Below, piece by piece: positions 16,479 through 53,668 of a DNA stretch of 64,000 bases. The stretch comes from Pristiophorus japonicus. Taxonomy: Eukaryota. The translations under genes were made by a program, and so were the position numbers. The DNA lies in contig NC_091979.1 in the NCBI RefSeq assembly GCF_044704955.1, forward strand, positions 317,564,001 through 317,628,000, written 5' to 3'. Every line of letters starts with the position of its first letter. Position 1 is the first letter of the stretch. The notes beneath the pieces were generated by a model. The model searched no databases and was not told the DNA's origin. It was given only the letters and a program-made list of their open reading frames with translations.

Positions 16479-17890
16479 GCTAGTTGGATCCAAAATTGGT
16501 TCAGAGGTAAGAAGCAAAGGGTAATGGTTGATGGATGTTTTTGTGACTGGAAGGATGTTTCCAGTGGAGTCCGCAGGGCTCAGTACTGGGTCCCTTGCTT
16601 TTTGTGGTATACATCAATGATCTAGATTTGATTATAGGGAGTATGATTAAGAAGTTTGCAGATGACACTAAAATTGGCTGTGTGGTCGTTAATGAAGCAG
16701 AAAGTCATGGGCTGCAGGAGGATATCAATCTACTGGTCAGGTGAGCAGAGCAGTGGCAAATGGAATTTAATTTGGAGAAGTGTGAGGTAATGCACTTTGA
16801 GAGGGCTAATAAGGAAAGGATATACACATTAAGCGGTAGACCATGGAAAAGATGAATAAAGGGATCTTGGAGTGCTTGTCCACAGATCCCTGAAAGTAAG
16901 GTGGATAAGGTGGTGAAGAAGGCATACGGAATGGTTGCCTTTCTTGGCTGAGGCACATAATACAAGAGCAGGGAGGTTATGCTTAAAATGTATAATACTT
17001 TGGTTCGGCCACAGCTGGAGTACTGCGTGCAGTTCTGGTCGCCGTATTATAGGAAGGACGTGATTGCAATAGAGAGGGTGCAGAGGAGATTTGCTAGGAT
17101 GCTGCCTGGAATGGAGAAACTTAGCTATGCGGATAGATTGGATAGGCTGGGTTTGTTCTCATTGGAACAGAGGAGGTTGAGAGGAGACCTCATTGAGGTG
17201 TACAAACTTTTGAGGGGCCTGGATATAGTGGATAGCAAGGGCCTATTTCCCTTGGTGGTGGGTTCAATTATGAGGGGGCATAGTTTTAAGGTGGTTGGTG
17301 GAAGGTTCAGAGGGGATTTGAGGGGTGGCTTTTTCAAGCAGAGGGTTGTGGGGGTCTGGAACTTAGTGCCTGGAAGGGTGGTGGATGTAGAAACCCTCAA
17401 CGCATTTAAAAGGTGCTTGGATGTGCACTTAAAGTGCCGCAATCTGCAGGGTTACACGGACCTAAAGCTGGTAAGTGGGATTAGACTGGATAACCTGTTG
17501 GCAGGCACAGCTATGATGGTAAGTACTGCAGGGAATCGAATATATCCAGGGTGATCTCCTGGACGAGTTTCGATTACTTGGATGGGTTGGAGAGGAATGT
17601 TCCGAGATATTTTTTTCCCAATTGACCTGGGTTTTTCTCTGTTTTTTGCCTTTCCCAGGAGATCACATGGCTCCGGTTGGGGAGGAGTGTAGAATGTTTT
17701 GGTGCAAGGGGTGTCGCATTTGTGTGGGGCTGACTGGTTGGGCTGGGTGCTCTTTACCTTTCTGCCATTGTTCATTGATCATACGTTTATATGTAACTTT
17801 CAGGGCTGCTGACTGAGGGCCGTATGTTTCTTTGTCGGCCGGTGTGGACACGATGGGCCGAAATGGCCTCCTTCTGCGTTGTAGATTTGC
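16479..17890 (+). mobile_element. CR1 LINE 3' portion, different subfamily from its neighbour
   Basis: WIQNWFRGKKQRVMVDG, KFADDTK, LVRPQLEYCVQFWSP, RRLRGDLIEVYK; 3' end 'gggccgaaatggcctccttctgcgttgtag'. Confidence 0.92.
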
Positions 17891-19189
17891 AATTGTGCAA
17901 AAATAAATGATGGCTTCTGCTCAAATGCCTTTTCAAAATAGTACTTGCATTGATTGATCAACTCAGCTTTCTGTTGAAAAGCAGGATTGCGAGGGGCTTT
18001 GCTGCCTGGATATTTGATCAGTTGAAATATTTTTTTTCTGTAACACTGACCTATTTGGTGGTGTATGAAGGTAGAGTTTGGGGTAATTTTTAATGCTTTC
18101 TTCAACAGCTCCACAGCTTTTTCCACATCTCCTCTTCTGTAAAATTTTGCTGCATAACGAGTTACATATGGAAGATCAGGGGACTTCTGCAATGCTTGTT
18201 CAACTAATTCGTGTTCTTCCACCTTTTGATTGAACTCTTGTAGTTTTAGAGCCAACAGCACCATGGCTACAGAGTCATCTGGATCAAGTCCCCACACGTC
18301 GCAACTGCTTCACTGATTGGCTGCGGTCACCACTCTCTGGGGTACGAGAAAACGTGTCCACACGAAACATAACAGTCGCATAGCCAACGTTCCATTCAGT
18401 GTCATCAGGATCTTCCTCCAGAGTCTTCTCAAAACATTCCTTTGCCTCTTCATAGTATTGACTAGGAGAATTCAACAGTGACCAACCCTTCTCCCCGTAT
18501 ACTTCAGGTCTCAGTGCTGTATACCGAGAGCCATCGGTAAATTGTTTACAGATCATCTCCAGCTTGTCGAGGTAGGACTGGGCCTCTGTCAGTTGGCCCA
18601 TGTGATAATATACCCAGGCATAGTTTCCATAGGTGATGATGCTTCTTCTTTCAAATTCATGTTCCTGATTCTCCCTCAGAATCTTTTCAGCTTCCTTTAA
18701 GTTTTGAATTGCCCCTTTGAATTGCCTTGCAGACAGTTTACAAATGCGAGGTGGTTGTCAGACCTGGCCTGATAATTCACACCAGCCAGTATTAAATCTT
18801 GTAATCTATACTTCATGTCGTCCAAGTCAATGCTGTCTCTCTGTGGGCCCCACGTGAAGTGACATTGAAGCTGGCTGAGTTTTGCTTTCAAGCAATCATT
18901 CAGTGTGTTGCTGTAGGAGAACAAAATAATCAAAGCCCATCTTATGTGTATCTAACTTACATTTTTAGCTCATATATAATCAACATAGCAATGCTGGTAA
19001 AGTCAGAATAGCAGAACAGATGAGCAGCTCAGTGCACATGGGCCCGGAACACTTCCCTACAGCCTCACTGCCTGGCATCCCTCAGTTCGGGGGAAACCCA
19101 TTGGAATCCTGTAATGGTCCCGGAGGCAATAACAAATGAACAATTGGCTCATGAGTGTCAGCAGAAATCCACGATCATCCATTAGTCTG

Positions 19190-19555
19190 ATCATAGGTAG
19201 GAACATAGGAACATGTTCCACCATTCAATTTATCATGGCTGAACTGTATCACAACTTCATCTACCCACCCTGGTTCTGTAACCCTTAATACCCTTGCCTA
19301 ACAAAATTCTATCATCTCAGTTTTGACATTTTTAATTGGCCTAACCTCGACAGCTTATTAGGGGAGAGAGTTCCAGATTTCCACTACCCTTTGTGTGAAG
19401 AAGAGCTGTCTGACATCACCCCTGAATGGCTGAGCTCAAATTTCACTTTCATGCCCCCTTGTTCTGGCCTCCCCCACCAGAGGAAATCGTTTCTCTCGAT
19501 CGACCCGGTCAAATCCTTTAATCATATAAACATCTCAATTAGATCATCCCTTAAC
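19190..19555 (-). mobile_element. CR1 3' fragment
   Basis: Tail-like 'cataggtaggaacataggaacat' and similarity to the 3' ends of the other minus-strand CR1 copies in the window. Confidence 0.6.
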
Positions 19556-19958
19556 ACTGGGGAAAGCGGGCTCGGGGAATGGGAGACTGGGGAATGGGGG
19601 CTCGGGGATAGAGAGACTGGGGAATGTGGGCTCGGGGAGAGGGAGACTGGGGAATGGGGGCTCGGGGAGAGGGTGACTGGGAAATGGGGACTCGGGGAGA
19701 GGGAAACTGGGGAATGGGGGCGCGGGGAGAGGGAGACTGGGGAATGGGGGCTCGGGGAGAGGGAGACTGGGGAATGGGAGCTCGGGGAGAGGGAGACTGG
19801 GGAATGGGGGCTCGGGGAGAGGGAGACTGGGAAATGGGGGCTCGGGGAGAGGGAGACTGGGGAATGGGGGCTCGGGGAGAACGAGACTGGGGAATGGGGG
19901 CTCGGGGAGAGGGAGACTGGGGAATGGGGCCTCGGGGAGATGGAGACTGGGGAATGGG
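19556..19958 (+). repeat. 30-bp G-rich minisatellite (GGGAGACTGGGGAATGGGGGCTCGGGGAGA)n
   Basis: Repeat read directly; 10-aa periodicity (GERETGEWGL). Confidence 0.95.
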
Positions 19959-20321
19959 TCAGGGGGGATCATGGTGAGGCCAGGCGGGAGGTAGAAGAGG
20001 CCAGGTTGAGTGTAATTTATTCTGTGGTGGCCTGGAGGAGCTGGACTGATCCCTGGGCTCCAGACAAGGTCACTGGGCCTCTCCAGCCCTGGCCTTCTCT
20101 CACACACCACAGCAACTCCCTTCAGCCCCCTCCCAGCAGATCCCTTCAGCCCCCTTCCAGCAGATCCCTTCAGTCCCCTCGCAGCAGATCCCTTGAACCC
20201 CTCAGCAGATCGAGCTGCCGGGGGTGGGCAGAGCTTTCGGGGGGTTGGGAGTCGGGAAGTTGGGTTTGGAGGGTGGTGGGAGAACTCGGGACCGGGAGAG
20301 GCGGGGATTATCTTTAACCTA

Positions 20322-20363
20322 CCCGGCAACTGATGATGCAACTCGCAGTATTTGTCTGATTGG
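20322..20363 (+). promoter_or_regulatory. MHC X-Y promoter module (X1/X2 and Y boxes of the SXY enhanceosome)
   Basis: X1-like CCCGGCAACTGATG (20322-20335; compare HLA-DRA CCTAGCAACAGATG), overlapping X2/CRE-like TGATGCAA, then Y box CTGATTGG (20356-20363) 20 nt after X1, the conserved spacing. A second CCAAT box (CCAATCAG) lies at 20487-20494. Orientation matches the downstream MHC-I gene. Confidence 0.75.
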
Positions 20364-20547
20364 ATAGTTCAATGTTTGGAAAGTTTATTTCGGCACCAAC
20401 ACAAACTCTCCCCGTGTCTTTTCTACCCGGAGCCTGCTGACTCACAGCCTGTTTTTATTGTAATTGGAGACAAATATACCCTCGAACCAATCAGTCCGGA
20501 GGAGTCTGAGTGTAAAACACTCTGCACTGGGCAAAGCGCACGAACAG

Positions 20548-23500
20548 ATAGCACAGAGAGACAGTCCCAGAGACACAGTATCAGCACAGGGCACCGAGAC
20601 AGTCCCAGAGACACAGTATCAGCACAGGGCACAGAGAGACAGTCCCAGAGACACAGTATCAGCACAGGGCACAGAGAGACAGTCCCAGAGACACAGTATC
20701 AGCACAGGGCACAGAGAGACAGTCCCAGAGACACAGTATCAGCACAGGGCACAGAGAGACAGTCCCAGAGACACAGTATCAGCACAGGGCACAGAGAGAC
20801 AGTCCCAGAGACACAGTATCAGCACAGGGCACAGAGAGACAGTCCCAGAGACACAGTATCAGCACAGGGCACAGAGAGACAGTCCCAGAGACACAGTATC
20901 AGCACAGGGCACCGAGAGACAGTCCCGGAGACACAGTATCAGCACAGGGCACAGAGAGACAGTCCCAGAGACACAGTATCAGCACAGGGCACAGAGAGAC
21001 AGTCCCAGAGACACAGTATCAGCACAGGGCACCGAGAGACAGTCCCAGAGACACAGTATCAGCACAGGGCACAGAGAGACAGTCCCAGAGACACAGTATC
21101 AGCATAGGGCACAGCGAGCCAGTCCAGAGACACAGTATCAGCACAGGGCACAGAGAGACAGTCCCAGAGACACAGTATCAGCACAGGGCACAGAGACAGT
21201 CCCAGAGACACAGTATCAGCACAGGGCACAGAGAGACAGTCCCAGAGACACAGTATCAGCACAGGGCACAGAGAGACAGTCCCAGAGACACAGTATCAGC
21301 ACAGGGCACAGAGAGACAGTCCCAGAGACACAGTATCAGCACAGGGCACAGAGAGACAGTCCCAGAGACACAGTATCAGCACAGGGCACAGAGAGACAGT
21401 CCCAGAGACACAGTATCAGCACAGGGCACCGAGAGACAGTCCCGGAGACACAGTATCAGCACAGGGCACAGAGAGACAGTCCCAGAGACACAGTATCAGC
21501 ACAGGGCACAGAGAGACAGTCCCAGAGACACAGTATCAGCACAGGGCACCGAGAGACAGTCCCAGAGACACAGTATCAGCACAGGGCACAGAGAGACAGT
21601 CCCAGAGACACAGTATCAGCACAGGGCACAGAGAGACAGTCCCAGAGACACAGTATCAGCACAGGGCACAGAGAGACAGTCCCAGAGACACAGTATCAGC
21701 ACAGGGCACAGAGAGACAGTCCCAGAGACACAGTATCAGCACAGGGCACAGAGAGACAGTCCCAGAGACACAGTATCAGCACAGGGCACAGAGAGACAGT
21801 CCCAGAGACACAGTATCAGCACAGGGCACCGAGAGACAGTCCCGGAGACACAGTATCAGCACAGGGCACAGAGAGACAGTCCCGGAGACACAGTATCAGC
21901 ACAGGGCACAGAGAGACAGTCCCAGAGACACAGTATCAGCACAGGGCACCGAGAGACAGTCCCAGAGACACAGTATCAGCACAGGGCACAGAGAGACAGT
22001 CCCAGAGACACAGTATCAGCATAGGGCACAGCGAGCCAGTCCCAGAGACACAGTATCAGCACAGGGCACAGAGAGACAGTCCCAGAGACACAGTATCAGC
22101 ACAGGGCACAGAGACAGTCCCAGAGACACAGTATCAGCACAGGGCACAGAGAGACAGTCCCAGAGACACAGTATCAGCACAGGGCACAGAGAGACAGTCC
22201 CAGAGACACAGTATCAGCACAGGGCACAGAGAGACAGTCCCAGAGACACAGTATCAGCACAGGGCACAGAGAGACAGTCCCAGAGACACAGTATCAGCAC
22301 AGGGCACAGAGAGACAGTCCCAGAGACACAGTATCAGCACAGGGCACCGAGAGACAGTCCCGGAGACACAGTATCAGCACAGGGCACAGAGAGACAGTCC
22401 CAGAGACACAGTATCAGCACAGGGCACAGAGAGACAGTCCCAGAGACACAGTATCAGCACAGGGCACCGAGAGACAGTCCCAGAGACACAGTATCAGCAC
22501 AGGGCACAGAGAGACAGTCCCAGAGACACAGTATCAGCACAGGGCACAGAGAGACAGTCCCAGAGACACAGTATCAGCACAGGGCACAGAGAGACAGTCC
22601 CAGAGACACAGTATCAGCACAGGGCACAGAGAGACAGTCCCAGAGACACAGTATCAGCACAGGGCACAGAGAGACAGTCCCAGAGACACAGTATCAGCAC
22701 AGGGCACCGAGAGACAGTCCCGGAGACACAGTATCAGCACAGGGCACAGAGAGACAGTCCCAGAGACACAGTATCAGCACAGGGCACCGAGAGACAGTCC
22801 CGGAGACACAGTATCAGCACAGGGCACAGAGAGACAGTCCCAGAGAGAGAGTATCAGCACAGGGCACAGAGACAGTCTCAGAGACACAATATCAGCACAG
22901 GGCACAGAGAGACAGTCCCAGAGACACAGTATCAGCACAGGGCACAGAGAGACAGTCCCAGAGACACAGTATCAGCACAGAGCACAGAGAGACAGTCCCA
23001 GAGACACAGTATCAGCACAGGGCACAGAGAGACATTCCCAGAGACACAGTATCAGCACAGGGCACAGAGACAGTCCCAGGGACATAGTATCAGCACAGGG
23101 CACAGAGAGACAGTCCCAGAGACATAGTATCAGCACAGGGCACAGAGAGACAGTCCCGGAGACACAGTATCAGCACAGGCACAGAGAGTCAGTCCCAGAG
23201 ACACAGTATCAGCATAGGGCACAGTGAGACAGTCCCGGAGACACAGTATCAGCATAGGGCACAGAGAGACAGTCCCAGAGACACAGTATCAGCACAGGGC
23301 ACAGAGAGACAGTCCCGGAGACACAGTACCAGCACAGGGCACAGAGACAGTCCCAGAGACACAGTATCGACACAGGGCACAGAGAGACAATCCCAGAGAC
23401 ACAGTATCAGCACAGGGCATAGAGACAGTCCCAGAGACACAGTATCAGCACAGGGCACAGAGAGACAGTCCCAGAGACAGAGTATCAGCACAGGGCACAG

Positions 23501-26064
23501 AGACAGTCCCAGAGACACAATATCAGCACAGGGCACAGAGAGACAGTCCCAGAGACACAGTATCAGCACAGGGCACAGAGAGACAGTCCCAGAGACACAG
23601 TATCAGCACAGGGCACCGAGAGACAGTCCCAGAGACACAGTATCAGCACAGGGCACAGAGAGACAGTCCCAGAGACACAGTATCAGCACAGGGCACAGAG
23701 AGACAGTCCCAGAGACACAGTATCAGCACAGGGCACAGAGAGACAGTCCCAGAGACACAGTATCAGCACAGGGCACAGAGAGACAGTCCCAGAGACACAG
23801 TATCAGCACAGGGCACAGAGAGACAGTCCCAGAGACACAGTATCAGCACAGGGCACCGAGAGACAGTCCCGGAGACACAGTATCAGCACAGGGCACAGAG
23901 AGACAGTCCCAGAGACACAGTATCAGCACAGGGCACCGAGAGACAGTCCCGGAGACACAGTATCAGCACAGGGCACAGAGAGACAGTCCCAGAGAGAGAG
24001 TATCAGCACAGGGCACAGAGACAGTCTCAGAGACACAATATCAGCACAGGGCACAGAGAGACAGTCCCAGAGACACAGTATCAGCACAGGGCACAGAGAG
24101 ACAGTCCCAGAGACACAGTATCAGCACAGAGCACAGAGAGACAGTCCCAGAGACACAGTATCAGCACAGGGCACAGAGAGACATTCCCAGAGACACAGTA
24201 TCAGCACAGGGCACAGAGACAGTCCCAGGGACATAGTATCAGCACAGGGCACAGAGAGACAGTCCCAGAGACATAGTATCAGCACAGGGCACAGAGAGAC
24301 AGTCCCGGAGACACAGTATCAGCACAGGCACAGAGAGTCAGTCCCAGAGACACAGTATCAGCATAGGGCACAGTGAGACAGTCCCGGAGACACAGTATCA
24401 GCATAGGGCACAGAGAGACAGTCCCAGAGACACAGTATCAGCACAGGGCACAGAGAGACAGTCCCGGAGACACAGTACCAGCACAGGGCACAGAGACAGT
24501 CCCAGAGACACAGTATCGACACAGGGCACAGAGAGACAATCCCAGAGACACAGTATCAGCACAGGGCATAGAGACAGTCCCAGAGACACAGTATCAGCAC
24601 AGGGCACAGAGAGACAGTCCCAGAGACAGAGTATCAGCACAGGGCACAGAGACAGTCCCAGAGACACAATATCAGCACAGGGCACAGAGACAGTCCCAGA
24701 GACACAGTATCAGCACAGGGCACAGAGACAGTCCCAGAGACACAGTATCAGCACAGGGCACAGAGACAGTCCCAGGGACATAGTATCAGCACAGGGCACA
24801 GAGAGACAGTCCCGGAGACACAGTATCAGCACAGGGCACAGAGAGACAGTCCCAGAGACACAGTATCAGCACAGGGCACAGAGAGACAGTCCCAGAGACA
24901 CAGTATCAGCACAGGGCACAGAGAGACAGTCCCAGAGACACAGTATCAGCACAGGGCACAGAGACAGTCCCAGGGACATAGTATCAGCACAGGGCACAGA
25001 GAGACAGTCCCGGAGACACAGTATCAGCACAGGCACAGAGAGTCAGTCCCAGAGACACAGTATCAGCATAGGGCACAGAGAGACAGTCCCGGAGACACAG
25101 TATCAGCATAGGGCACAGAGAGACAGTCCCAGAGACACAGTATCAGCACAGGGCACAGAGAGACAATCCGGAGACACAGTATCAGCACAGGCACAGAGAT
25201 TCAGTCCCAGAGACACAGTATCAGCACTGGGCACAGAGAGACAGTCCCAGAGACACAGTATCAGCACAGGGCACAGAGACAGTCCCAGAGACACAGTATC
25301 AGCACAGGGCACAGAGAGACAGTCCCAGAGACACAGTATCAGCACAGGGCACAGAGAGACAGTCCCAGAGACACTGTATCAGCACAGGGCACAGAGACAG
25401 TCCCAGAGACACAATATCAGCACAGGGCACAGAGAGACAATCCCAGAGACACAGTATCAGCACAGGGCACAGAGAGACAGTCTCAGAGACACAGTATCAG
25501 CACAGTGCACAGAGAGACAGTCCCAGAGACACAATATCAGCACAGGGCACAGAGAGACAGTCCCAGAGACACAGTATCAGCACAGGGCACAGAGACAGTC
25601 CCAGGGACATAGTATCAGCACAGGGCACAGAGAGACAGTCCCGGAGACACAGTATCAGCACAGGCACAGAGATTCAGTCCCAGAGACACAGTATCAGCAT
25701 AGGGCACAGAGAGACAGTCCCGGAGACACAGTACCAGCACAGGGCACAGAGACAGTCCCAGAGACACAGTATCGACACAGGGCACAGAGAGACAGTCCCA
25801 GAGACACAGTATCAGCACAGGGCATAGAGACAGTCCCAGGGACACAGTATCAGCACAGGGCACAGAGAGACAGTCCCAGGGACACAGTATCAGCACAGGG
25901 CACAGAGAGACAGTCCCAGAGACACAGTATCAGCACTGGGCACAGAGAGACAGTCCCAGAGACACAGTATCAGCACAGGGCACAGAGAGACAGTCCCAGA
26001 GACACAGTATCAGCACAGGGCACAGAGAGACAGTCCCAGAGACACAGTATCGGCACTGGGCACA
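20548..26064. repeat. 40-bp minisatellite (CAGTCCCAGAGACACAGTATCAGCACAGGGCACAGAGAGA)n, about 138 copies
   Basis: Repeat read directly, with 38- and 39-bp variant units; 40-aa periodicity in overlapping ORFs. Confidence 0.98.
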
Positions 26065-26161
26065 GGAATCACACGGTCTGAATTGGGCGCAGCTCACGGA
26101 CGGTCTCTCGGAAAAGGATTGCCTGCAAACTGCTCATCCCAGCCTGTCGAGGGAAGTAACA

Positions 26162-27209
26162 ATGTTTGGACTGACCGTGCTGGCCCTTCTGTGTGGAGAG
26201 GTGTGTGCAGGCTCTCACTCCCTGCGGTACATGCACACGGCTATCACTCCGCTCCCGGGCATTGCTGAGTTCACCGATGTGGGTTATGTGGATGACCAGC
26301 AGTTTATTTACTATGACAGTGTGAGCCGCCAGTACACCCCGCGGCAGCGGTGGATCAGGGAGAGCGAGGGCGCCGAGTACTGGGAGCGCTACACACAGAT
26401 CCTGCGGGGCAAGGAGCAGGTGATGAAAGGCAACATTCAGACCGTCTTAACCCGCACCAACCAGACCGCCGGGATCCACACGCTGCAGAGGTTGTGCGGC
26501 TGTGAGCTGCGGGATGACGGCACCACCAGCGGCTTCTGGCAGTACGGCTGGGACGGGAAGGACCTGATCAGCTTCGACAAGGATCGCCTGGTGTGGGTCA
26601 CCCCGGTACCGTGGGGAGAGATCACCAAGAACAAGTGGGACCAGGACAGGGCCGAAATGCAGCAGGACAAAAGTTACCTGGAGCAGGAGTGCATCGAGTG
26701 GCTGAAGAAATACCTGAAGGCTGGAGAGAGAGAACTGGGAGCTGTTGCTCCTCAAGTGTTTCCTTCTGTGGACAAGGCGTCAAATATTAAAGCCCCCCAA
26801 CTCTCCTGTCTCCTCACAGGTTTTTACCCTCGCGAAATCCAAGTGACCCTCCTGAGAAATGGCGAGCCAATCAGGGACACGGAATCCACGGGCATCCTGC
26901 CCAATCACGACATGGGCTCAGATCGAGCCCGCGGATGGAGCCACCTATTCCTGTCAGTATGAGCAGAGCGGCCAAGCAGGAGGGAAGACCCGAGACTGGG
27001 ACGGGACGTACCGAGTGACTCCAGGATCGCCAGAGGGAATAAATAGGGGTTTGATTGTTGGAATTGTGATTGCTGCCGTCGCCCTGATTGCTCTTGTGAT
27101 CGGTGCGGTTGTGTGGAAGAGGAGAGGAGGAGAGGAGACATCTGGTTACAGCCCAGCGAACCCTGCTGAACGAGGAGAATTATCCCCAAACTCAGTAGCC
27201 CAGTCCTGA
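26162..27209 (+). pseudogene. Single-exon (intronless) MHC class I heavy-chain gene with a frameshifting deletion in alpha3
   Basis: Signal peptide MFGLTVLALLCGEVCA; alpha1 GSHSLRY...VGYVDDQQFIYYDS...EYWER...RTNQT; alpha2 HTLQRLCGCEL...GKDLISFD...ITKNKWD...YLEQECIEWLKKYL; alpha3 LSCLLTGFYPREIQVTLLRNG...ILPNHD. The frame shifts at about 26910 to TWAQIEP..YSCQYEQ, TM GLIVGIVIAAVALIALVIGAVVW and tail KRR..SGYSPA..*(27209). No intron at any domain boundary. Confidence 0.93.
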
Positions 27210-27454
27210 GGCTGATCCCGAAGTGAAGTTCACTGGGACTAGAATCTGGACTTGCTGTGTCGCAAGGAGGGTTCATTCAGAAGCAATCCACGATTCTGCA
27301 TCTTCATTTCGTTTGATTGTCACTGGCTGCTGCCAGTGTTAATAGTAATCGGTAATGTATCTATCATTGAGTGGGTTTGGGGATATTTTCTTTTTGGTGA
27401 TTGGATAGAAATCTCCAGTTGGGTCTTTTGGTGTTTAATGTAAATGAGATGTGT

Positions 27455-27521
27455 CGATTTCGGCACGGGCTGGATGGCCAAATGGTCGTCTTCCGTGCTG
27501 TAACCATTCTATGATTCTATG
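27455..27521 (+). mobile_element. Short CR1-type 3' end with (ATTCTATG)n tail
   Basis: 'ggcacgggctggatggccaaatggtcgtcttccgtgctgtaaccattctatgattctatg' resembles the CR1 terminal stem-loop plus octamer tail. Confidence 0.6.
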
Positions 27522-27531
27522 TATGGTGGCC

Positions 27532-28131
27532 GGGGGAGAGGGAGACTGGGAATGGGGTGGGGGGAGAGAGGGAGACTGGGAATGGGGTCTTGGGGAGACG
27601 GAGACTGGGAATGGGGGCTGGGGGAGAGAGGGAGACTGGGAATGGGGTCTTGGGGAGAGAGAGACTGGGGAATGGGGGCTCAGGGAGAGGGAGACTGGGG
27701 AATGGGGGCTAGGGGAGAGAGGGACTGGGTAATGGGGGCTCAGGGAGAGGGAGACTTGGGAATGGGGCCTCGGGGAGAGAGAGACTGGGGAATGGGGGCT
27801 TGGGGAGCGGGAGACTGGGGAATGGGGGCTTGGGGAGACGGAGACTTGGGAATGGGGCCTCGGGGAGAGAGAGACTGGGGAATGGGGGCTCGGGGCTCGG
27901 GAGACTGGGGAATGGGGGCTTGGGGAGAGGGAGACTGGGGAATGGGGGCTTGGGGAGAGAGGGAGACTGGGGAATGGGGGCTCTGGGAGAGGGAGACTGG
28001 GGAATGGGGGCTTGGGGAGAGAGGGAGACTGGGGAATGGGGGCTCTGGGAGAGGGAGACTGGGGAATGGGGGCTCGGGGAGAGAGAGACTGGGGAATGGG
28101 TGCTCGGGGAGAGGGAGACTGGGGAATGGGG
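27532..28131 (+). repeat. 30-bp G-rich minisatellite, second block
   Basis: Same unit as 19556-19958. Its right flank (28132-28464) is the reverse complement of 45196-45597 and 52136-52551. Confidence 0.95.
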
Positions 28132-28464
28132 TGGGTGTGGGTTCTAGTATTTCCCCCAGAGCCGGGAGCAGCAGCAACGTGGTGAGTGGGAGTGACACTG
28201 AGAGAGGAGCAGCCAGTAAAGGGGTGAGTGAAACCTGGGGACCTTACTGTGGGTAAATAGTGAAAGATTATTTCCAGTGGTGGGCGAATGGGGAACTAGG
28301 GAACGGAAACCAAAGATTCTAAAACCTAAAGGGAATGTGATAAATATTTGAAAAGGAAGAATGTTATAAGATCTGGGGGTGGGGTGGGCGGGGGGGAATG
28401 GGATTACAGAAGAGAGTGCGAGCTCCGAGGCCGAATGATCTCCTCCTGTGCAGTCATTTCTATA

Positions 28465-31160
28465 AATGCATTCCCCACTCTGCTCAATGTGCTGAAGTTG
28501 CAGCCCTGGTGACAGCAATCCAAATGACTTATGACATACCTGTTAATGCCTGGCCAGATAGTGCCTATGCGATTAACACTTTGTTACCTTTATCGCTGTA
28601 TGCTCGGAACACGATCAGCCCCTGTTTATGTTGGTAAGAAGTCTCACTCACCATCTTTGAACTTACACACCCGGAGCAACTCACAAGCAGATCATGCTGC
28701 TACAGATGCCACCGTTAACCTCTGGCAAGCTCCTACCCCTCCCTTAAGGTCTGTCCCGAGTATTCAAGGTGGGGACATCGATCTCCCGGTCTCTAGGCCA
28801 GTTATCTTCCCTATGCGGTTGTTATTGCATGGCATCGGGATGGATGTCCGTTGTCTCAGCCCACTCCATGGGCTGTGGACACACAATTGGCTCCAGATCA
28901 GTCTGGGAAATCTGCCATCCTGTTAATGTATGGGCCCTGCTTGCGGTGGCTATCATCTGATCTCCCAGTTGTCTGTGTTCCCCCATCCATGGCACCCAAA
29001 ATGTTTGATCTCCTCCATTGACACCCGGTGGGAGGACACTATTCAGCCGATGCAACTGTTCAGAAACTACGCAAATTTGCATGGCATCATAATTGTGTTA
29101 CTGACGTCACTCATAGAGTGAATGTTGCCTGCCCTGTTTACAGCAAAACCCAAGTGCCACATGAAGCGAGCACTGTTGGGAAGTCCCCCTTCTCCCGAGG
29201 GGGCCAAGGTCCCACCTTCAAATTGACTTTATAGGCCCTTGCCTACAGGGCCTTCTAGGTTGTGGTATTGTCTGGTTGTAGTTGATACGTTTACAAAATG
29301 GATGGAGTCTTTTCCATGTAAAACAAACACAGTATTGACAGCAGCTCGCCTATTATTGGGTGAGGTGAGCTGCAGGCAGGGAGTGCCAATTCAGGCTGAT
29401 ACCGCACAAAGTTTTACCGAGCTGCAACGGACAATGAGTATGTTGCATAAACTTCACATCTCCCACCGTCCACAATCATCTGGAATGGTGGAAAGAGGAA
29501 ATCGAATTCTGAAAATTATGTTAAACAAATTTGGTGCAGATCACCCCACCAAATGGTCTAGCATGCTGTCAATGTGCCAGATAGTTATTAGATCCACCCC
29601 GCATAGCACAACGGGTATTTCACCCTACCAAGCTATGACTGGGCGACTAATGCGAATGCCAGCCCATCTGTTAACCCCTTCAGTTACACCCTTAGTACAG
29701 GGAACTGCCAACCAAAAATGGCTTGAAATGTAGCCAGACAGACAGGGAAGTCAAGAAGCCAGGCATAGAAACACTTCGATAAGCAGTTCCGACCTTTTGA
29801 ACATCAAGTGGGAGATATCGTAATGCTACTAAACTATGGGAAGCAACAACATTGCTTCGAACCAAGGTGGAATGGCCCCATTCCCGATTATTGACGGGGT
29901 CAGTTCTTCGGTCTATCTGTTGCAATTCCCTGGGGAAAAAGGGGAGGACCAAGGGGGCTAAATAGTACCATATCAATCAGTTGAAAACCGTGAAAGAATA
30001 AATATTGCATGTTTTATCTTATAGAACCAGTTAAGAATGATCAGTTATCGAACCCTCCTGCTGGAGGTCATCATATACTTCAGACATTCGAACAGGTCTC
30101 AGACATGCTCAGTTACTTGACAACAGAAGATGTGAAATGGTTAATGTGGCTCAGGGAAGTGAGACAATTAACACATACTCCATCGAGAATCAATCTAATT
30201 AATGACAAAGAGAGAGATTTGGAGAATCTTTTAAGTCCATGACTTGTTGATTAGATGTTAAACTTCAGCTTTCTGTACAATGTCTGTTTTCATTACCTGC
30301 ATCAATGTTTGCTGGACATGTATATACTTAGTTGATGTGCTACTGATTGTCAGACTGAATTGTAACTATAATAATTATGTTTGGTAGGTAACAGAGCGTG
30401 GGAAAAGCCAGTACGAATCCAGTATGAGGGTTTTGATGCTGCCTCCTGTAGTATGTTTTACGGGTCTAAAGAGCCTCTTTCAAAACCGATACTGAAGTGA
30501 AACTGACAGTAAATGAGATACTTCAGTATAAGCTGCACAATTAAGTGGTTCAATTGGTACGACATTCAGAATGGTGGGATATTGGGCCTAATATATCAGT
30601 ACATTCTTAGGTTCAAATTATTTCACACGCTCTGGTAATTATTTAACTTGTGATGATAGTGTATTTGATATTTGATTAATTGAACACAACAAAAGGGAAT
30701 ATGTGAAGCAACACAGAGGAAACCCCAGGTGGGGTAAGATCAGGAGAGATACAAGAAACAGAGGATAGCCCAGGCAGGGCAGAATTGGAACACCGGAACA
30801 GTGAATTGAATTTGAGAAAGGGCTCAGAGGTTGCAACTCCCGTTTAAAGGAACGGATTGTAACAAAGGGGAAAATCTTCATTTTTGTATCACCCTTAGCA
30901 AAATCTAGAGTTGGCATGGTTAGTAGAGGTACGGAAATGAGAGATCGAAATAACTTTCTCTCAAGGAGGGGAATATGTTAGAAATCAGGGATACCGAAAA
31001 ATGTATAAAACTGTTATGAATGTATAAAACTGATACGAATGCTGTGTTTAAATCATTGTTTTGAACTAAAGACGGAATATCTATCAGCTACCTGTTACGA
31101 TTGTATGTTTTTGCGATACAACTAATGTGTTATATTCCATCTTAAAGTCTGATTAAACAC
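28465..31160 (+). mobile_element. Degenerate endogenous retrovirus-like element: RNase H, integrase, possible env remnant, PPT and start of 3' LTR
   Basis: RNase H 'HSAQCAEVAAL...NAWPDSAYA'; HHCC region 'GGHYSADATVQKL...ACPV'; integrase core 'VVVDTFTKWMESFP...HRPQSSGMVERGNRILK...TGISPYQAMTGR'; GPY/F tail 'VGDIVML...PRWNGP/FPII...YHINQLK'; polypurine tract AAGGAGGGGAA (30963-30973) followed by TGTTAG at 30976. Confidence 0.8.
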
Positions 31161-44582: not shown

Positions 44583-45597
44583 GAGCAATTTGCAGAGGGG
44601 AAACCAGAAGTCAAAGGAATTTTTTTCCACCAGTAAAGAATGGTAACTCACTGAAATTGTACTGATGACTAACAGTAATACTGGTATCACTCAGATTCCC
44701 CTCACAATCAACAGTAATACAATAACTGATTGATAGTCTATATGTTACAAGCAGTAATAGGTGTAATGTCTCTCTATCCTACATGTAACTAGCAGTAATA
44801 CTTTAACCCACTGATACTCACCCTGAAACCATACCCAGAATCCCCCTGCACTGCACCAGGTGAGGTCAGGCTCCTCAGTTGAAGCCACATTTAACAGGCC
44901 CAGTCGCTCTCTCTCTCTCTATCTCCTTGGAATCTGGTTTGGTCTCCGGTTCCGTGTGAAGATGACAATTCTGAACTGGGAACCTCAGTCTGAGCTGATC
45001 TGTACTTGGACTTCACACGTCAAACCCGGCCGACACAGACCCACCTGAACCAAACCGAGAGATTGCACAAAGGCCAGTGAGCTCAGTGTTTGGGGCACTT
45101 CTCACAGGGCACATTGTCCTAAACTCAGCTCAGCACCAACATTTCTAAACCGCTCCATGTGCTCGGTCTCAATAAAGGAGGGTTTGCATAGAATTATAGA
45201 AATGACTGCACAGGAGGAGACCATTCGGTCTCGGAGCTCGCACTCTCTTCTGTAATCCCATTCCCCCCCCAGATCTTTTTATATTCTTCCTTTTCAAATA
45301 TTTATCCCATTCCCTTTAGGTTTTAGATGCTACCTCAATAGCTACATGTAGTGAAGGATCCCACGGTCCAATAGCCCTTCCTCCTCCCTGCCCCCTTGTT
45401 TCTTCCAGTGAGAATCCTTGGTTTCTGTTCCCTAGTTCCCCATTCGCCCACCACTGGAAATAATCTTTCACTATTTACCCACAGTAAGGTCCCCAGGTTT
45501 CACTCACCCCTTTACTGGCTGCTCCTCTCTGTGTCACTCCCACTCACCACGTTGCTGCTGCTCCCGGCTCTGTGGGAAATACTGGAACCCACACCCA

Positions 45598-46230
45598 CCC
45601 CATTCCCCAGTCTCACTCTCCCCGAGCCCCCATTCTCCAGTCTCCCTCACCCTGAGCTCCCATTCCCCAGTCTCCCTCTCCCCGAGCCCCCATTCCCCAG
45701 TCTCTCTCTCCCCAAGCCCCCATTCCCCAGTCTCCCTCTCTCCCCGAGCCCCCATTCCCCAGTCTCCCTCTCCCAGAGCCCCCATTCCCTAGTCTCTCTC
45801 TCCCCGAGCCCCCATTCCCCAGTCTGCCTCTCCCCAAGCCCCAGTCTCCCTCTCTCCCCGAGCCCATATTCCCCAGTCTCCCTCTCTCCCCAAGCCCCCA
45901 TTCCCCTGTCTCCCTCTCCCCGAGCCCCCATTCCCCAGTCTCCCTCTCCCCGAGCCCCCATTCCCCAGTCTCCCTCTCCCCGAGCCTCCATTCCCCAATC
46001 TCCCAAGCCCCGAATCCCCAGTCTCCCGAAACATGAACCCCCATTCCCCCGAACCCCCATTCTCCAGTCTCCCCGACCCCCCATTCCCCAGTCTCCCTCT
46101 CCCCGAGCACCCATTCCCCACTCTCCCTCTCTCCCCAAGCCCCCATTCCCCAGTCTCCCTCTCCCCGAGCTCCCATTCCCCACTCTCCCTCTCTCCCCAA
46201 GCCCCCATTCCCCAGTCTCTCCCCTTCCCC
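45598..46230 (-). repeat. 30-bp G-rich minisatellite (C-rich on plus)
   Basis: Reverse complement of the 19.6 and 27.5 kb satellite. Confidence 0.95.
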
Positions 46231-46522
46231 AAACCTCCCAACTTGTCGCTGCTCTCGTTTTTGTGGTCGAGTGACATCACCGAGCCAGAGGTCCCACTGA
46301 GCAGCAGCCAGTGAGGTCACGGAGCGGGGGAGGGGTGGGTGGATGCACTGCGGCGGGAAATTTAAATCACTGATCTCACGTGGTGTTGGAGGCTGTGCTC
46401 GGGAGAGAAATCCACAAAACCCATTCTAAGCCCCAAAGTTAATCCTGAAAGGTGAGGACAGAGGGACATGGAGGCTTTTCATAATACTACTAACTTCCGG
46501 ATGGCTATTCTCAGACTTGGTC

Positions 46523-46593
46523 AGTGTTACTTTCCAGTTTCACTTTCAGGAACCAATTCCTCAAAATCATGTGATTCCGGATGGTATATAAAA
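46523..46593 (+). promoter_or_regulatory. Interferon-inducible promoter: ISRE and TATA box (copy 1)
   Basis: Perfect ISRE AGTTTCACTTTC at 46536-46547, degenerate ISRE AGTGTTACTTTC at 46523-46534, TATATAAAA at 46585-46593. Confidence 0.8.
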
Positions 46594-46663
46594 TATCCGG
46601 GAATACAAACCTTGCAGTGTTCCGGCTGATCGGCTAACTGAAGGTGAAATCCAGATCAGCATC

Positions 46664-46668
46664 ATGAG
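46664..46668 (+). CDS. IFIT: IFIT first coding micro-exon (ATG AG | gtcagt), copy 1
   Basis: atcATGAG followed by donor GTCAGT, about 75 nt after the TATA box. IFIT genes characteristically carry only Met plus 2 nt in exon 1. The phase fits the exon-2 acceptor seen at 18910 (ATG AG|C AAC = M-S-N). Confidence 0.72.
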
Positions 46669-49600
46669 GTCAGTGATCACTTCGCGTTACACAAAGTTAT
46701 TAGATGTACTGACATTTTAAGAAAATAACAGTGACGTTTTAATGGGGTTCCTCATTGCCATTTTACTTCCGGGTTTCGTGTCCCCAATGTACGTAAGCGG
46801 GCGTGACATGGACCCGCATGATGCGATTTCACCTCGACCACTGAAAGGGCCTGTTCACAGAGGCAATGGAGGAGTTAGCGACATTGGACTGGAAGGAGTG
46901 CAGGCAGAGTTATGGAAGGAAGGAGGACAAAGGATGCGCCCAGGTTTAATGAGGCATCCGTGGATATCATTGGAATGAAAATCCAATGCCCATGCTCATT
47001 ATCGAATCCAAAATACTTGAAAATAAACAAAATAAGTTGTTAAAAAGCATTTTGGCGTTCTCATCTTTTTTGAGGGTTGAGTCAGGTTCTTTGAAAGAGT
47101 TGATGAGCTTTTGCTACTTGTCGAAGTGTGGAAATTATGGGAAGTGCATGTGATTGGCTGTTGATGGAAGACAGGATGGACATTGGTGTGGTGTCCCACA
47201 TAGTCAAACACCCTGCTACACTCGATGGTCTCCACATCAATAATGGGCCCCTGGGTGAGGTACTGGAGGGTGACCAGTGCCCATGGGACTGTGTCCCACG
47301 AGGGAGTCAACACCTTAAGGAGCGGAGGGAAGGGCAACAAATAGCAGAGAAAACAGGTAAGAAACAAAAACCTTTCTGGTTACTGGGTGTTCCCAGGCCC
47401 CAGGATGTATTTTCTGGCACTGCACAGGTGCTCTCTCCACCTCTAACCCAGAGGTGGCTGCTGGGATGTTCTGGGAAACTTACACTTTCATACATTCACA
47501 CAAAAGTGCAGAGCAACAGTGTGAGTGAGAGCCACAATGTGATCCGATTGTGAGCTCCGTCAGTGCATTCCCACTGGAGCCTTCCTTCCTCCTTCCTTCC
47601 TTCGGTGTGGAAGAAGTGCTTCCTGATTTCTCCCATCATAAGTGTAGCTAATTATAAGATTCTGCTCCCTTGTTCTGGATTCCCCACCAGAGGAAATAGT
47701 TTCTCTGTATTGACCCGATCGAATCCCATTATCATTTTAAACACCTCAATTAGCGGTGAGGCCATTGAGGGATTTGAAAACAAGGATGAGAATTTTAAAA
47801 GCGAGGCATTGCCGGATGGAGCCAATGCAAGTCAGCGAACACAGGGGTGATGGGTGAATGGGACTTGGTGCGAGTTAGGATACGGGCACAGAGTTTTGGA
47901 TAAGCTCAAGTTTACAGAGGGTGCAAGGTGGGAGGCCGGCCAGGAGAGCATTGGAATAGTGGAGTCTCGAGGTAGTTAAAGCGAGGATGAATGTTTCAGC
48001 AGCAGATGAGCTGAGGCAGAGTCGGAGACGGTAAACGATACGATATTACAAACACCGAGCAATGCTGGTTCCTGTCCAGAGAGGACGACTGTTTTACATT
48101 TCTCTCGAGTTCAAATTAATTAAAATCAGGAGAGATGTTTAACAGGCCGCCGACTCACTACTACCCGGTTTACACAATCACTCAAAGTCAAGCTCACTCT
48201 GGAGTCTGGGTCTGGGAGTTAAAATGGCCCAGGCCTCACACTGAGGAGTCCGTGGGGATTTCCCTCTCCCCACGCAACCCAGGCCCCAAGTTAAAATCAG
48301 GGCAATTAAAGCCTGTTATAAAGTGGAAACGAGTATTCTGTAAGTGACTTGATCTTATTTTCAGACTTTGAAGAAGGGTCTATTCTGTGACCCATGGTAA
48401 TGTAGCAGGGACTTCCTAATGACAGCCGAAAGCATTCTCAACTGCAATTTCCATGGCAACAGAAAATAAACACGACTTTACATTCCTGCCTAAGGTCCCA
48501 TGGAATCTGACTGCACTTACTGTCGATTCACAAAAACAACCAACTTCCAGATGGAAAGAGATCAGATGTCGTTAGTTTGACTTTCCAGGTCCAGTTTCTG
48601 AGTTGTCAACTCTGGTTGGAGGCATTGCTGGAGATTTGATCATGTGACATTTGATCACATGTCACCTAACCGTGTGATGCCTGACCATATGGCATCTGAC
48701 CACATGACATCTGATCATGTGACGCATGATCACGACATCTGATCATGTGACACCTGATCACATGACTTGTACAAAGGCGATTGGGAAGGAAATTGTGGTC
48801 AGGCATCCTTTGGACGAACGCCTCGGACCCGGAAAAATTTTCGGAAAATAGCTGGTAGTCACGGAGGAGCCTACGATTGCGGTCGGAGGCTTTCATTCGC
48901 TGCACAGCGTACGGGAAGATGACTTCCCCGTACGTACGGAAACGCTGGAGTCACATGGGCCTGGACCACCAATCACTGGGTAGTATTCTCATTGATAAAA
49001 ATGGGAACTTTGTTTTTACAAGTTCCCATTACTGTCGATGAGGAATCCCTCCTAAAACAAGAAACACAGCATAATAAATTAAAAACAACTCACATATTTA
49101 AAATTAATTGAAATTAAATGTAACTAAGTGTTTTAGAAAAAATATATATTTTTTGAATTTTTTTAATGTATTTGAATAGAGTTAAAAAAATAAACTTATC
49201 TTAATGGAGAGGGATTTTACATAAAAATGAATAACTAAATAAAAATGTTATATGTTTTGAAAGTGTTATGCTGGTAAAAGTAAGCTATGCGCCTGCTTTT
49301 ACCAGGAGTAAAAGTTTGAAGGACATTCGCTGGGCATGAGTTGGGCAAATAGCCCAATCTCTGCCACACAAAATTTCCTTATCCCGGGATGTGCTCGTTG
49401 ACGGATCGGAAAAGCCGGTTTTCAGCGCATGTGCATCTTGCCACGAAAACCGACTTTTGTGATCCCTCGCCAGGTCTGTGCGCACATCGTACGGACCCGG
49501 CAAGGCTGCAATTTTCAGCCCAATTGTGTTTACCTTATAACCGTTATGTTCCCTGGAGTTGAGTATTTTTGCTTGTGGTTACATGCCAGCAGCTGGTGGG

Positions 49601-51528: not shown

Positions 51529-52551
51529 GAGCAATTTGCAGAGGGGAAACCAGAAGTCAAAGGAATTTTTTCCACCAGTAACTAATGGTAACACACTGAA
51601 ATTGTACTGATGATATACAGTAATACTGGTATCACTCAGATTCCCGTCACAACCAACAGTAATACAATAACTCATTGATAGTCTATATGTTACAAGCAGT
51701 AATAGGTGTAAAGTCTCTCTATCCTACGTGTAACTAGCAGTAATATTTAACCCACTGATAATCACCCTAAAACCATACCCAGAATCCCCCTGCACTGCAC
51801 CAGGTGAGGTCAGGTTCCCCAGTTGAAGCCACATTTAACAGGCCCCATCTCTCTCTCTCTATCTTCTCGGAATCTGGTTTGGTCTCCGGTTCCATGTGAA
51901 GGTGACAATTCTGAACTGGGAACCTCAGTCTGAGCTGATCTGTACTTGGACTTCACACGTCAAACCCGGCCGGCACAGACCCACCTGAACCAAACCGAGA
52001 GATTGCACAAAGGCCAGTGAGCTCAGTGTTTGGGGCACTTCTCACAGGGCACATTGTCCTAAACTCAGCTCAGCACCAACATTTCTAAACCGCTCCATGT
52101 GCTCGGTCTCAATAAAGGAGGGTTTTCATAGAATTATAGAAATGACTGCACAGGAGGAGACCATTCGGTCTCGGACCTCGCACTCTCTTCTGTAATCCCA
52201 TTCCCCCCAGGTCTTTTCATATTCTTCCTTTTCAAATATTTATCACATTTCCTTTAGGTTTTAGACGCTAGCTCAATAGCTACATGTGGTGAAGGATCCC
52301 ACGGTCTAATAGCCCACAGTTCAATGACCTTCCTCCTCCGTTCCCCCTTGTTTCTTCCAGTGAGAATCCTTGGTTTCTGTTCCCTAGTTCCCCATTCGCC
52401 CACCACTGGAAATAATCTTTCACTATTTACTCACAGTAAGGTCCCCAGGTTTCACTCACCCCTTTACTGGCTGCTCCTCTCTCAGTGTCACTCCCACTCA
52501 CCACGTTGCTGCTGCTCCCGGCTCTGTGGGAAATACTGGACCCTGCACCCA

Positions 52552-53272
52552 CCCCATTCCCCAGTCTCCCTCTCCCCGAGCACCCATTCCCCAGTCTCTC
52601 TCTCCCCGAGCCCCCATTCCCCAGTCTCCCTCTCCCTGAGCCCCCATTCCCCAGTCTCCCTCTCCCCGAGCCCCCATTCCCCAGTCTCTCTCTCCCCGAG
52701 CCCCCATTCCCCAGACTCCCTCTCCCCGAGCCCCCATTCCCCAGTCTCCCTCTCCCCTAACCCCCATTCCCCAGTCTCCCTCTCCCCGAGCCCCCTTTCC
52801 CCAGTCTCCCTCTCCCCGAGCCCCCATTCCCCAGTCTCCCTCTCCCCTAACCCCCATTCCCCAGTCTCCCTCTCCCCAAGCCTCCATTCCCCAGTCTCCC
52901 TCTCCCCGAGCCCCCATTCCCCAGTCTCCCTCTCCCCAAGCCCCCATTCCCCCTCTCCCTGAGCACCCATTCCCCAGTCTCCCTCTCCCCGAGCCTCCAT
53001 TCCCCAGTCTCCCTCTCCCCGAGCCTCCATTCCCCAGTTTCCCTCTCCCCGAGCCCCCATTCCCCCTCTCCCCGAGCCCCCATTCCCCAGTCTCCCTCTC
53101 CCCGAGCCCCCATTCCCCAGTCTCCCTCTCCCCGAGCCCCCATTCCCCAGTCTCCCTCTCCCCGAGCCCCCATTCCCCAGTCTCCCTCTCCCCGAGCCCC
53201 CATTCCCCAGTCTCCCTCTCCCCGAGCCCCCATTCCCCCTCTCCCCGAGCCCCCATTCCCCAGTCTCCCTCT
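52552..53272 (-). repeat. 30-bp G-rich minisatellite (C-rich on plus)
   Basis: Reverse complement of the 19.6 and 27.5 kb satellite. Confidence 0.95.
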
Positions 53273-53523
53273 TTCCTCCACACTTGATTTTCTTCGATTT
53301 CAGAGTACCCCACTTTCAGAGCAACCCCCGTTTTGAAAGACACAAAATTTCAAAGACCCCTAAATTCAGAGAACAGGGGGCCGGTCACAACGTGCTGTGT
53401 CTCCCTGTGCCCCCCGCCACCCAGCCCCCGTGTCAGCCACCCCCTGCCCGCGATTTTAACTACCAGGTTTTTGGGGATAGTATAATTCAACTAAGTTCCA
53501 GATGGGAATTATCAGACATGGTC

Positions 53524-53593: not shown

Positions 53594-53668
53594 TATCCGG
53601 GAAGACAAAGCTTGCAGTGTTCCGGCTGATCGGCGAACTGAGGTACCGGTGACATCCAGACCAGCATC

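What the first reader, a model, noticed from the sequence alone, without database searches (positions are those of the whole stretch)
19556..28464. MHC cassette appears inserted into the G-rich satellite marking the IFIT upstream region
Seen: in both plus-strand IFIT units the order is conserved flank, 30-bp satellite, about 250-300 bp, ISRE, exon 1. The same flank and satellite occur inverted at 27532-28464, correctly oriented as the upstream region of the minus-strand IFIT exon 2 at 18910. A second same-orientation satellite block lies at 19556-19958. The 7.6 kb between the two blocks is exactly the MHC promoter, VNTR and gene. The ISRE and exon 1 expected left of 19556 are missing, with a CR1 fragment there instead. 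Inference: satellite-mediated recombination or repair placed a promoter-bearing MHC-I cassette into an IFIT promoter region, a possible route for shuffling immune genes.
Basis: partly seen in the sequence, partly recalled or inferred. Interest (0 to 1): 0.7.

Follow-up and report, generated by a model that had tools for sequence, protein, structure and literature searches.

The report
Intronless shark MHC-I retrogene family
A spliced, intron-free copy of a shark's classical MHC class I gene, still carrying the parent's promoter, sits in a broken antiviral IFIT gene far from the MHC and exists in nine copies, eight with an intact protein frame; it was likely pasted in by a CR1 LINE enzyme that recognised a LINE tail in the gene's own mRNA rather than moved by the satellite.

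Summary
The layout is real; the cause is probably not the one proposed. The 7.56-kb insert is a retrocopy of the classical class I gene beside TAP on contig C19. All 7 introns are lost exactly, and it stops at a CR1 LINE tail that already lies in the parent's 3' UTR. Five of seven other dispersed copies that reach this tail also stop in its terminal repeat. It carries the parent's X/Y-box promoter, so the template was likely a 5'-extended transcript. It landed once, antisense, at the satellite upstream of an IFIT gene that lost about 2.7 kb (ISRE, exon 1, most of the intron). The block was then amplified to nine copies; eight encode an intact 355-aa class I protein, and the window's copy is frameshifted. 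The 'conserved flank' is a dispersed repeat, and the regular satellite was not found at donor loci, so satellite recombination is an unlikely mover, although the extra left array may come from repair. Intact class I genes outside the MHC contradict a 2023 survey of elasmobranchs. Expression and function are untested.

The parts
17880..18913 (-). IFIT exon 2, 5' part; pseudogene (frame breaks at codon 72, cut by CR1 DNA at 17879; the rest resumes near 15384)
   Evidence: IFIT1/5/2/3 hits E 3e-38 to 7e-28; frame state; self-alignment
18914..19555 (-). Native 3' end of the IFIT intron, including a CR1 fragment (about 19210-19555); left breakpoint of the about 2.7-kb deletion at 19555/19556
   Evidence: 88% to the intron of C5 IFIT genes L039 and L110
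19556..19958 (+). Left, extra block of the 30-bp G-rich satellite (403-545 bp in the nine copies)
19959..20209 (+). Piece of class I upstream DNA that lies 2.8-15 kb above the promoter in present C19/C11 class I genes; homology runs up to the satellite junction
   Evidence: 80-83% matches
20210..20312 (+). 103-bp G-rich linker with no source found outside the cassette copies
   Evidence: 10 of 10 hits are cassette copies; no match above shuffled controls
20313..20550 (+). Parental class I promoter from the X box on (X-like 20323-20341, Y box CTGATTGG 20356-20363); the parent's upstream ISRE-like word is not carried
   Evidence: 84-85% to C19 promoters; box names recalled from the MHC SXY module
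20551..26065 (+). 40-bp VNTR in the 5' UTR region, 0.85-5.5 kb across copies, no ATG; short versions sit at the same place in two C19 class I genes
26066..27209 (+). 5' UTR and intronless class I coding sequence (ATG 26162, original stop 27207-27209); this copy has a 20-bp deletion at 26905 and stops early at 26962
27210..27521 (+). Spliced 3' UTR ending in a CR1-type tail (about 27461-27521: stem-loop plus ATTCTATG repeat) inherited from the parent's last exon
27522..28131 (+). About 10 junction bases, then the right satellite array (609-914 bp in the nine copies, the size of a whole native array)
28132..28465 (+). 'Flank': part of a dispersed repeat that carries the satellite; an 83-bp internal deletion is shared by all nine cassette copies
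45194..46670 (+). Reference unit 1: flank, array, spacer, ISRE-like run, IFIT-type exon 1
   Evidence: same order leads to an exon 2 in C5 (L039)
52134..53675 (+). Reference unit 2: flank, array, different spacer, ISRE-like run, IFIT-type exon 1

Best explanation
The insert is an intronless copy of the classical MHC class I gene that ends at a CR1 LINE tail present in the parent's 3' UTR, and it was likely made by a CR1 reverse transcriptase priming at that tail on a 5'-extended, promoter-containing transcript, inserted once at the satellite of an IFIT upstream region, and then multiplied to nine copies with the IFIT cluster. Shown: loss of all introns, the end point, parental promoter and tail, the shared junctions, the missing IFIT ISRE and exon 1, and eight intact 355-aa frames. 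Inferred: the enzyme, the extended transcript, and that the 2.7-kb deletion and the extra left array arose at or after repair of the 5' end. Also inferred: that selection kept the frame open, so that the intact copies would work as a near-monomorphic class I family outside the MHC.
For: Parent on C19 (54,657,885-54,675,689) has 8 exons with GT-AG introns, and all 7 junctions are joined exactly in the cassette, including the intron just after the stop codon. The parent lies 135 kb from a TAP2-like exon and 260 kb from a weak proteasome-subunit hit. Its last exon holds the same tail and continues past it; the cassette stops in the tail's repeat. The same tail follows a CR1 ORF2 end in L077 and L048 and folds into one stem-loop in cassette, parent and CR1 (z -4.0, -1.1, -1.2). 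Of 7 dispersed spliced copies that reach the tail, 5 end in the ATTCTATG repeat, 1 ends inside the tail and 1 reads on. Nine copies share both cassette junctions, the intron-satellite junction and the flank deletion, and differ by 0-18 bases in 1.46 kb. 8 of 9 frames are intact. Eight independent dead copies of similar branch length (0.06-0.16 versus 0.08) carry 23 stops or frameshifts in 1002 codons, which predicts about 8 for 355 codons (P(0) about 3e-4, rough). Contigs of a second sample and study (X5) bridge six of the exon joints with 1-8 differences.
Against: No target-site duplication was seen; the insert is flanked by satellite on both sides. The 5' 354 bp (upstream piece plus linker) and the left array are not explained by plain target-primed insertion. 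No transcript starting upstream of the parent promoter was observed. A splice acceptor-like AG sits right at the promoter junction in 4 of 4 class I promoters aligned, but 2 of the next 5 bases differ. Branch-specific dN/dS in alpha3-TM-tail is 0.42-0.50 against 0.78 for dead copies, not significant (Fisher p 0.22-0.34). The retrocopy branch (0.08) is longer than the divergence of the host flank from other C3 units (3-4%), which fits either a diverged donor allele or an older intermediate copy. The C19 gene lacks the VNTR and part of the 5' UTR, so it is not the exact donor.
Confidence: 0.75

Rival explanations
1. Two steps, as the first reader partly proposed. An intronless copy arose first (retroposition elsewhere, or cDNA conversion of a class I paralog that kept its promoter), and was later moved as DNA into the IFIT array by satellite-guided break repair, which duplicated the array and deleted 2.7 kb.
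For: Arrays flank both ends in the same orientation; the right array alone is native size and the left one is extra, ending at the same repeat phase as native arrays. The insert carries DNA from upstream of the promoter. The parent has a G-rich array 3.9 kb upstream and G-rich DNA 1.7 kb downstream. The retrocopy looks older than the host flank.
Against: The 3' end carries no downstream genomic DNA: it stops in the tail repeat, 10 bases from the array. The parent's arrays have a different unit, and 0 of 48 exact two-unit matches lie on C19 or C11. No second full-length intronless copy at another site was found among 105 protein matches or 23 promoter matches.
Confidence: 0.15
2. The copy was made by another retroelement (poly(A)-primed L1-like, or LTR template switching), and its end at the tail is a later truncation.
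For: One dispersed copy (L084) reads through the tail, so other priming occurs. Several proteasome hits on other contigs are long, exon-spanning matches that look like processed copies of genes not checked for a tail.
Against: No poly(A) and no LTR at either end; 5 of 7 independent copies and the cassette stop within the same few bases.
Confidence: 0.06
3. The arrangement or the copy number is an assembly product across the satellite and VNTR.
For: Some copies are identical or one base apart over 1.46 kb (L033/L034, L035/L038, L031/L037), and unplaced contig C3585 repeats one copy. No contig bridged a satellite junction by 31 bases on both sides. The window's 20-bp deletion was not listed in the laid contigs.
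Against: Nine copies in both orientations over 2.7 Mb share junctions but differ in array, VNTR and point variants in at least three lineages. An intronless gene cannot be made by a join. The copy number, not the structure, is in doubt.
Confidence: 0.04

Closest known systems
Elasmobranch classical class I (UAA); nurse shark chain 6LUP, Squalus acanthias Q8HWH7
   Same: Best solved match E 1e-86; 72-73% identity to Q8HWH7 and to the C19 parent; groups with them in the tree (94/90) inside a 100/100 clade; peptide-terminus residues kept.
   Different: Intronless, on a contig region without TAP or proteasome hits, nine near-identical copies rather than one polymorphic locus.
Retrogenes that inherit the parent's promoter through a 5'-extended transcript (Pgk2 type; Casola and Betran 2017, PMC5470649, sections 5 and 14 read)
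   Same: Spliced body plus parental upstream DNA; that review puts this route at about 3% of mouse and human retrocopies.
   Different: No poly(A) or target-site duplication; ends in a CR1 tail. That review says CR1's strict 3' recognition limits which cellular RNAs can be copied.
SINEs that borrow a LINE 3' tail, e.g. shark HE1 SINE with HER1 LINE (Ohshima 2013, PMC3747384, passages and table read)
   Same: A short LINE tail with stem-loop and terminal repeat at the 3' end of a non-autonomous RNA.
   Different: The passenger is a protein-coding host mRNA that gained the tail by an insertion in its 3' UTR. I did not test whether this tail is HER1/HE1 itself.
MHC-unlinked class I genes of the tammar wallaby (Siddle et al. 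2009, PMC2719672, abstract and passages read)
   Same: Class I genes, some classical-like, moved out of the MHC, with mobile elements implicated.
   Different: There movement is attributed to recombination at endogenous retroviral DNA; here the gene passed through spliced RNA and was amplified inside an IFIT cluster.

Membership tests
Retrocopy (processed gene) | Precise loss of the parent's introns | tested here: met
   7 of 7 junctions
Retrocopy (processed gene) | 3' end at an RNA priming site, no downstream genomic DNA | tested here: met
   Ends in the tail repeat while the parent continues; no poly(A)
Retrocopy (processed gene) | Target-site duplication | tested here: inconclusive
   None seen by eye in nine junction pairs; both sides are satellite
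CR1-tail-mobilised RNA (SINE-like) | 3' tail shared with a CR1 LINE, with stem-loop and terminal microsatellite | tested here: met
   Same tail behind CR1 ORF2 ends in L077 and L048; same fold; tail is very high copy
CR1-tail-mobilised RNA (SINE-like) | Independent copies end at the tail and are 5'-truncated | tested here: met
   5 of 7 end in the repeat, 1 inside the tail, 1 reads on; all 7 are 5'-truncated
CR1-tail-mobilised RNA (SINE-like) | Tail-dependent mobilisation in trans by the LINE enzyme | not testable with these tools
   Needs a cell assay
Classical class I (UAA) | UAA-lineage sequence and conserved peptide-terminus residues (Y7, Y59, R84, T143, K146, W147, Y159, W167, Y171; numbering recalled) | tested here: met
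   All present, with both disulfides and the N86 glycan site
Classical class I (UAA) | Linkage to TAP and PSMB genes | tested here: not met
   TAP2-like and proteasome hits lie beside the C19 parent; none among the scored hits at C3 316-320 Mb
Classical class I (UAA) | High allelic polymorphism and broad high expression | not testable with these tools
   One genome; the copies within it are nearly identical
Repeat-mediated non-allelic recombination | Homologous repeat at donor and target, junctions inside shared sequence | tested here: not met
   0 of 48 exact satellite words on C19 or C11; parent arrays have another unit; at most 3 shared bases at the 5' junction
Repeat-mediated non-allelic recombination | Empty single-array allele | tested here: inconclusive
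   6 of 14 other C3 units viewed, all with ISRE and exon 1; C5 shows the undeleted state; no deleted-but-empty unit found

The most novel reading that the evidence does not exclude
A LINE tail stranded in the 3' UTR turned this shark's classical MHC class I mRNA into a SINE-like mobile template. One full-length product kept its promoter and became an expressed, selected, peptide-presenting class I family of up to eight genes inside the antiviral IFIT cluster: working class I genes outside the elasmobranch MHC.
Probability: 0.4. Interest if true: 0.8.

Novelty: new variant of a known kind. Interest (0 to 1): 0.62.

Why it matters
Verissimo et al. 2023 (PMC10751288, abstract and section 9 read) report no class I genes outside the elasmobranch MHC and use this to argue for ancestral linkage. 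Eight intact classical-type genes on another chromosome are a counter-example and show how a shark can make one. CR1 is thought to make few retrocopies because it needs its own 3' end. A host mRNA with that end in its UTR, with several dispersed copies stopping at it, is a natural test of that rule and predicts which other shark genes will have retrocopies. The dispersed copies and the transposon-borne fragments also matter in practice: they will confound class I genotyping with alpha3, transmembrane or 3' UTR probes and primers in this lineage.

Tried and rejected
Satellite and flank as IFIT-specific marks: rejected for the flank. Of 40 scored matches (703 first-look candidates, inflated by a CR1 tail in the query), 16 lie outside IFIT clusters at 83-88%, and 7 of 11 fetched have degenerate satellite beside it. 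The regular array is nearly cluster-specific: 45 of 48 exact words in the C3 cluster, 2 on a duplicate contig, 1 in another copy of the repeat at C3:311.69 Mb; the C5 IFIT arrays are more degenerate and gave none. A source for the 103-bp linker: none. Terminal inverted repeats of a recalled hAT type on the satellite-bearing repeat: only scattered 2-mismatch hits, so its class is unsettled. Microhomology at the intron-satellite junction: a similar word lies 8 bases away, not at the junction. Expression: no RNA holder listed. Runs X5-X8 have no recorded kind; X5 may be RNA by its size and depth pattern, but that is inference, and it also holds a 269-base contig over the promoter. Branch-specific dN/dS was not significant. 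The proteasome exon on C19 was not identified to gene. An orthologous intronless gene in other sharks: no protein closer than 73% except a 100% identical UniRef record labelled Pristiophorus japonicus (near lengths only, no genomic context); run X6, labelled another organism, holds two short near-identical pieces. Literature: six answered searches on class I and retrocopies listed no paper on an intronless shark class I gene; two searches returned nothing. Almeida 2020 and 2021 are not held and supplements of Verissimo 2023 were not read; any of these could bear on novelty. Earlier scan findings: none. No structure prediction was run, as the fold is settled by sequence.
Full report
Setting. 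The window is G000:C3:317,564,001-317,628,000 of a 5.9-Gb genome. The class I protein is closest to nurse shark class I among solved structures, and an intact copy is 100% identical to a UniRef record labelled Pristiophorus japonicus with an automatic name only. The region is a large IFIT cluster: 97 matches to the exon 2 query, most at C3 316.3-319.5 Mb and a second group at C5 24.7-25.1 Mb.

The observation. The four satellite arrays, the inverted flank, the ISRE-like runs and exon 1 of the two plus-strand units, and their absence left of 19556 are all in the sequence. A C5 IFIT gives the undisturbed order: flank, array, spacer, ISRE, exon 1, intron, exon 2 (L039, L110). The 642 bp left of the cassette is 88% identical to that intron, CR1 fragment included. 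Measured on L039, 2,667 bp (spacer, ISRE, exon 1, most of the intron) is missing here.

One event, nine copies. The protein search found nine intronless copies within 2.7 Mb of C3. All nine have the same order and the same three junctions, and share a deletion in the flank. They differ by 0-18 bases over 1.46 kb, in VNTR length (0.85-5.5 kb) and in array length. Eight encode a full 355-aa protein with leader, alpha1-3, transmembrane and cytoplasmic parts. The window's copy has a 20-bp deletion between short direct repeats at 26905. The neighbouring IFIT exon 2 is broken in the eight copies read in full (L035 was only partly fetched). Some copies are identical or one base apart, and an unplaced contig repeats one of them, so nine is an upper bound for one haplotype.

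The insert is a retrocopy. The best parent, C19:54,657,885-54,675,689, has eight exons and translates to P0005. It lies 135 kb from a TAP2-like exon and 260 kb from a weak proteasome-subunit hit, as expected of the class Ia region. The cassette joins all seven exon boundaries exactly. In a protein tree of 38 rows (proteins of 300-420 aa, P0001 left out as identical to the query) it groups with the parent and Squalus Q8HWH7, away from the horn shark records at 47-49% identity. The residues that anchor peptide ends are kept (numbering recalled).

How it was copied. The parent's last exon contains a roughly 60-base tail and runs on beyond it; the cassette stops in the tail's ATTCTATG repeat, 10 bases from the right array. 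The same tail follows CR1 ORF2 ends elsewhere and folds into the same stem-loop (significant against shuffles only in the cassette copy). A search with the 3' part scored 40 of 506 candidates, a number inflated by the tail: nine cassettes, seven dispersed spliced copies reaching the tail, 22 fragments ending at one internal point, and two others. Of the seven, five end in the repeat, one inside the tail and one reads on; all are 5'-truncated. This is the pattern expected if a CR1 enzyme recognises its own 3' end in the mRNA. That the enzyme did so is inferred; strict CR1 recognition is taken from PMC5470649 (section 5) and PMC3747384 (passages).

The 5' end. Two other processed copies begin at the 5' UTR (L087, L088). 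The cassette instead carries the promoter from the X box on (84-85% to C19 promoters), a 103-bp linker of unknown source, and 251 bp that lies 2.8-15 kb upstream in present class I genes. The promoter junction falls at an acceptor-like AG conserved in four promoters, which would drop the parent's ISRE-like word, but two of the next five bases differ. A 5'-extended, possibly spliced, transcript explains this best, the Pgk2 route of PMC5470649 (section 14). It was not observed. The VNTR is inherited: short versions lie at the same place in two C19 genes, though not in the best parent, so the true donor was a related allele or paralog.

The satellite. The flank belongs to a dispersed repeat of a few kb whose G-rich part is degenerate in most copies. 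The regular 30-bp form is almost confined to the C3 cluster and absent from the donor contigs; the parent's own upstream array has a different unit. The right array is the size of a native one (609-914 against 641-843 bp), the left one (403-545 bp) is extra, and in 12-mer content resembles unit-2-type arrays more than its partner. So the cassette did not simply split one array. Either repair of the 5' end copied satellite and rejoined in the intron, or a later unequal exchange did so. The cassette is antisense to the IFIT and the IFIT ISRE is gone, so no interferon promoter was captured.

Is it a working gene? Against the parent, dN/dS is 0.41-0.44 overall, dS about 0.24 in alpha3-TM-tail, and the 3' UTR is 85% identical. 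The retrocopy's branch is as long as those of dead tail-ended copies. Eight independent dead copies carry 23 lesions in 1002 codons, predicting about 8 in 355; the intact copies have none (transposon-borne copies other than L071 were left out as non-independent). The 1-5.6 kb between promoter and start codon has no ATG in any copy. Contigs from a second sample and study bridge six exon joints with cassette-type sequence; that run's kind is not on record, so this shows either an intronless gene in a second sample or its transcript.

Verdict. A real and unusual structure, best read as a promoter-bearing classical class I retrogene made through a LINE tail, inserted once and amplified with an IFIT cluster. 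It is a new variant of a known kind (retrogene). It matters because it breaks the published statement that elasmobranchs have no class I genes outside the MHC (PMC10751288, section 9) and offers a test of CR1 specificity. The claim that it is not in print rests on the searches named under Tried and rejected, with two key shark class I papers unavailable.

Noticed in passing
L075, L076, L078-L082, L117-L119 (e.g. G000:C9:76,332,300-76,333,700): A 1.2-1.45 kb non-autonomous element with 16-bp terminal inverted repeats carries a spliced class I fragment (alpha3 end, transmembrane, tail, 150 bp of UTR). 22 of 40 scored hits end at its junction, 15 exact junction words on 8 contigs, termini. L071 looks like the precursor: a tail-ended retrocopy inside the same element. 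Harbinger-like by its ends (recalled, not tested).
   Followed up: partly
G000:C11:148.36-148.57 Mb (L015, L026, L028, L065-L068): At least two intron-containing class I genes with the same promoter type lie on C11, away from the C19 MHC; a second exception to MHC linkage, or a translocated piece of the MHC.
   Followed up: no
G000:C3 316.3-319.5 Mb and C5 24.7-25.1 Mb: Very large IFIT expansion: 97 exon 2 matches, dozens with open frames of 476-515 aa, in inverted and tandem blocks.
   Followed up: no
G000:C19:56.25 Mb and 56.61-56.69 Mb: A second TAP-like gene and a second classical-type promoter and alpha2 exon about 2 Mb from the parent: a duplicated class Ia region or a second haplotype in the assembly.
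   Followed up: no
L089, L090, L086, L087, L088: Processed copies of other class I lineages, with a different transmembrane region, also exist; whether their parents have a LINE tail was not checked.
   Followed up: no
window 1-10259: Three and a quarter tandem copies of a 3159-bp unit at 98.5-99% identity, holding decayed LINE-like frames; no Pfam match for the one frame scanned.
   Followed up: no
window 54227-58911: LTR retroelement with 252-bp terminal repeats 95.7% alike and reverse transcriptase and integrase matches on the minus strand, inside the intron after exon 1 of unit 2; frames are broken.
   Followed up: no
window 17919-18243 and 38051-38375: 325 bp of IFIT exon 2 is 95.7% identical between the minus-strand pseudogene and a plus-strand 3' fragment, against about 76% further on: likely gene conversion.
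   Followed up: no
window 41243-52551: Nested tandem duplications (2.7 kb at 96.9%, 1.06 kb three times) with 23-bp and 15-bp minisatellites upstream of the two plus-strand units.
   Followed up: no
G000:C1:134,137,535-134,138,074 and similar rows: Several proteasome-subunit matches span 100-180 profile positions in one frame, which suggests processed copies of these genes too.
   Followed up: no
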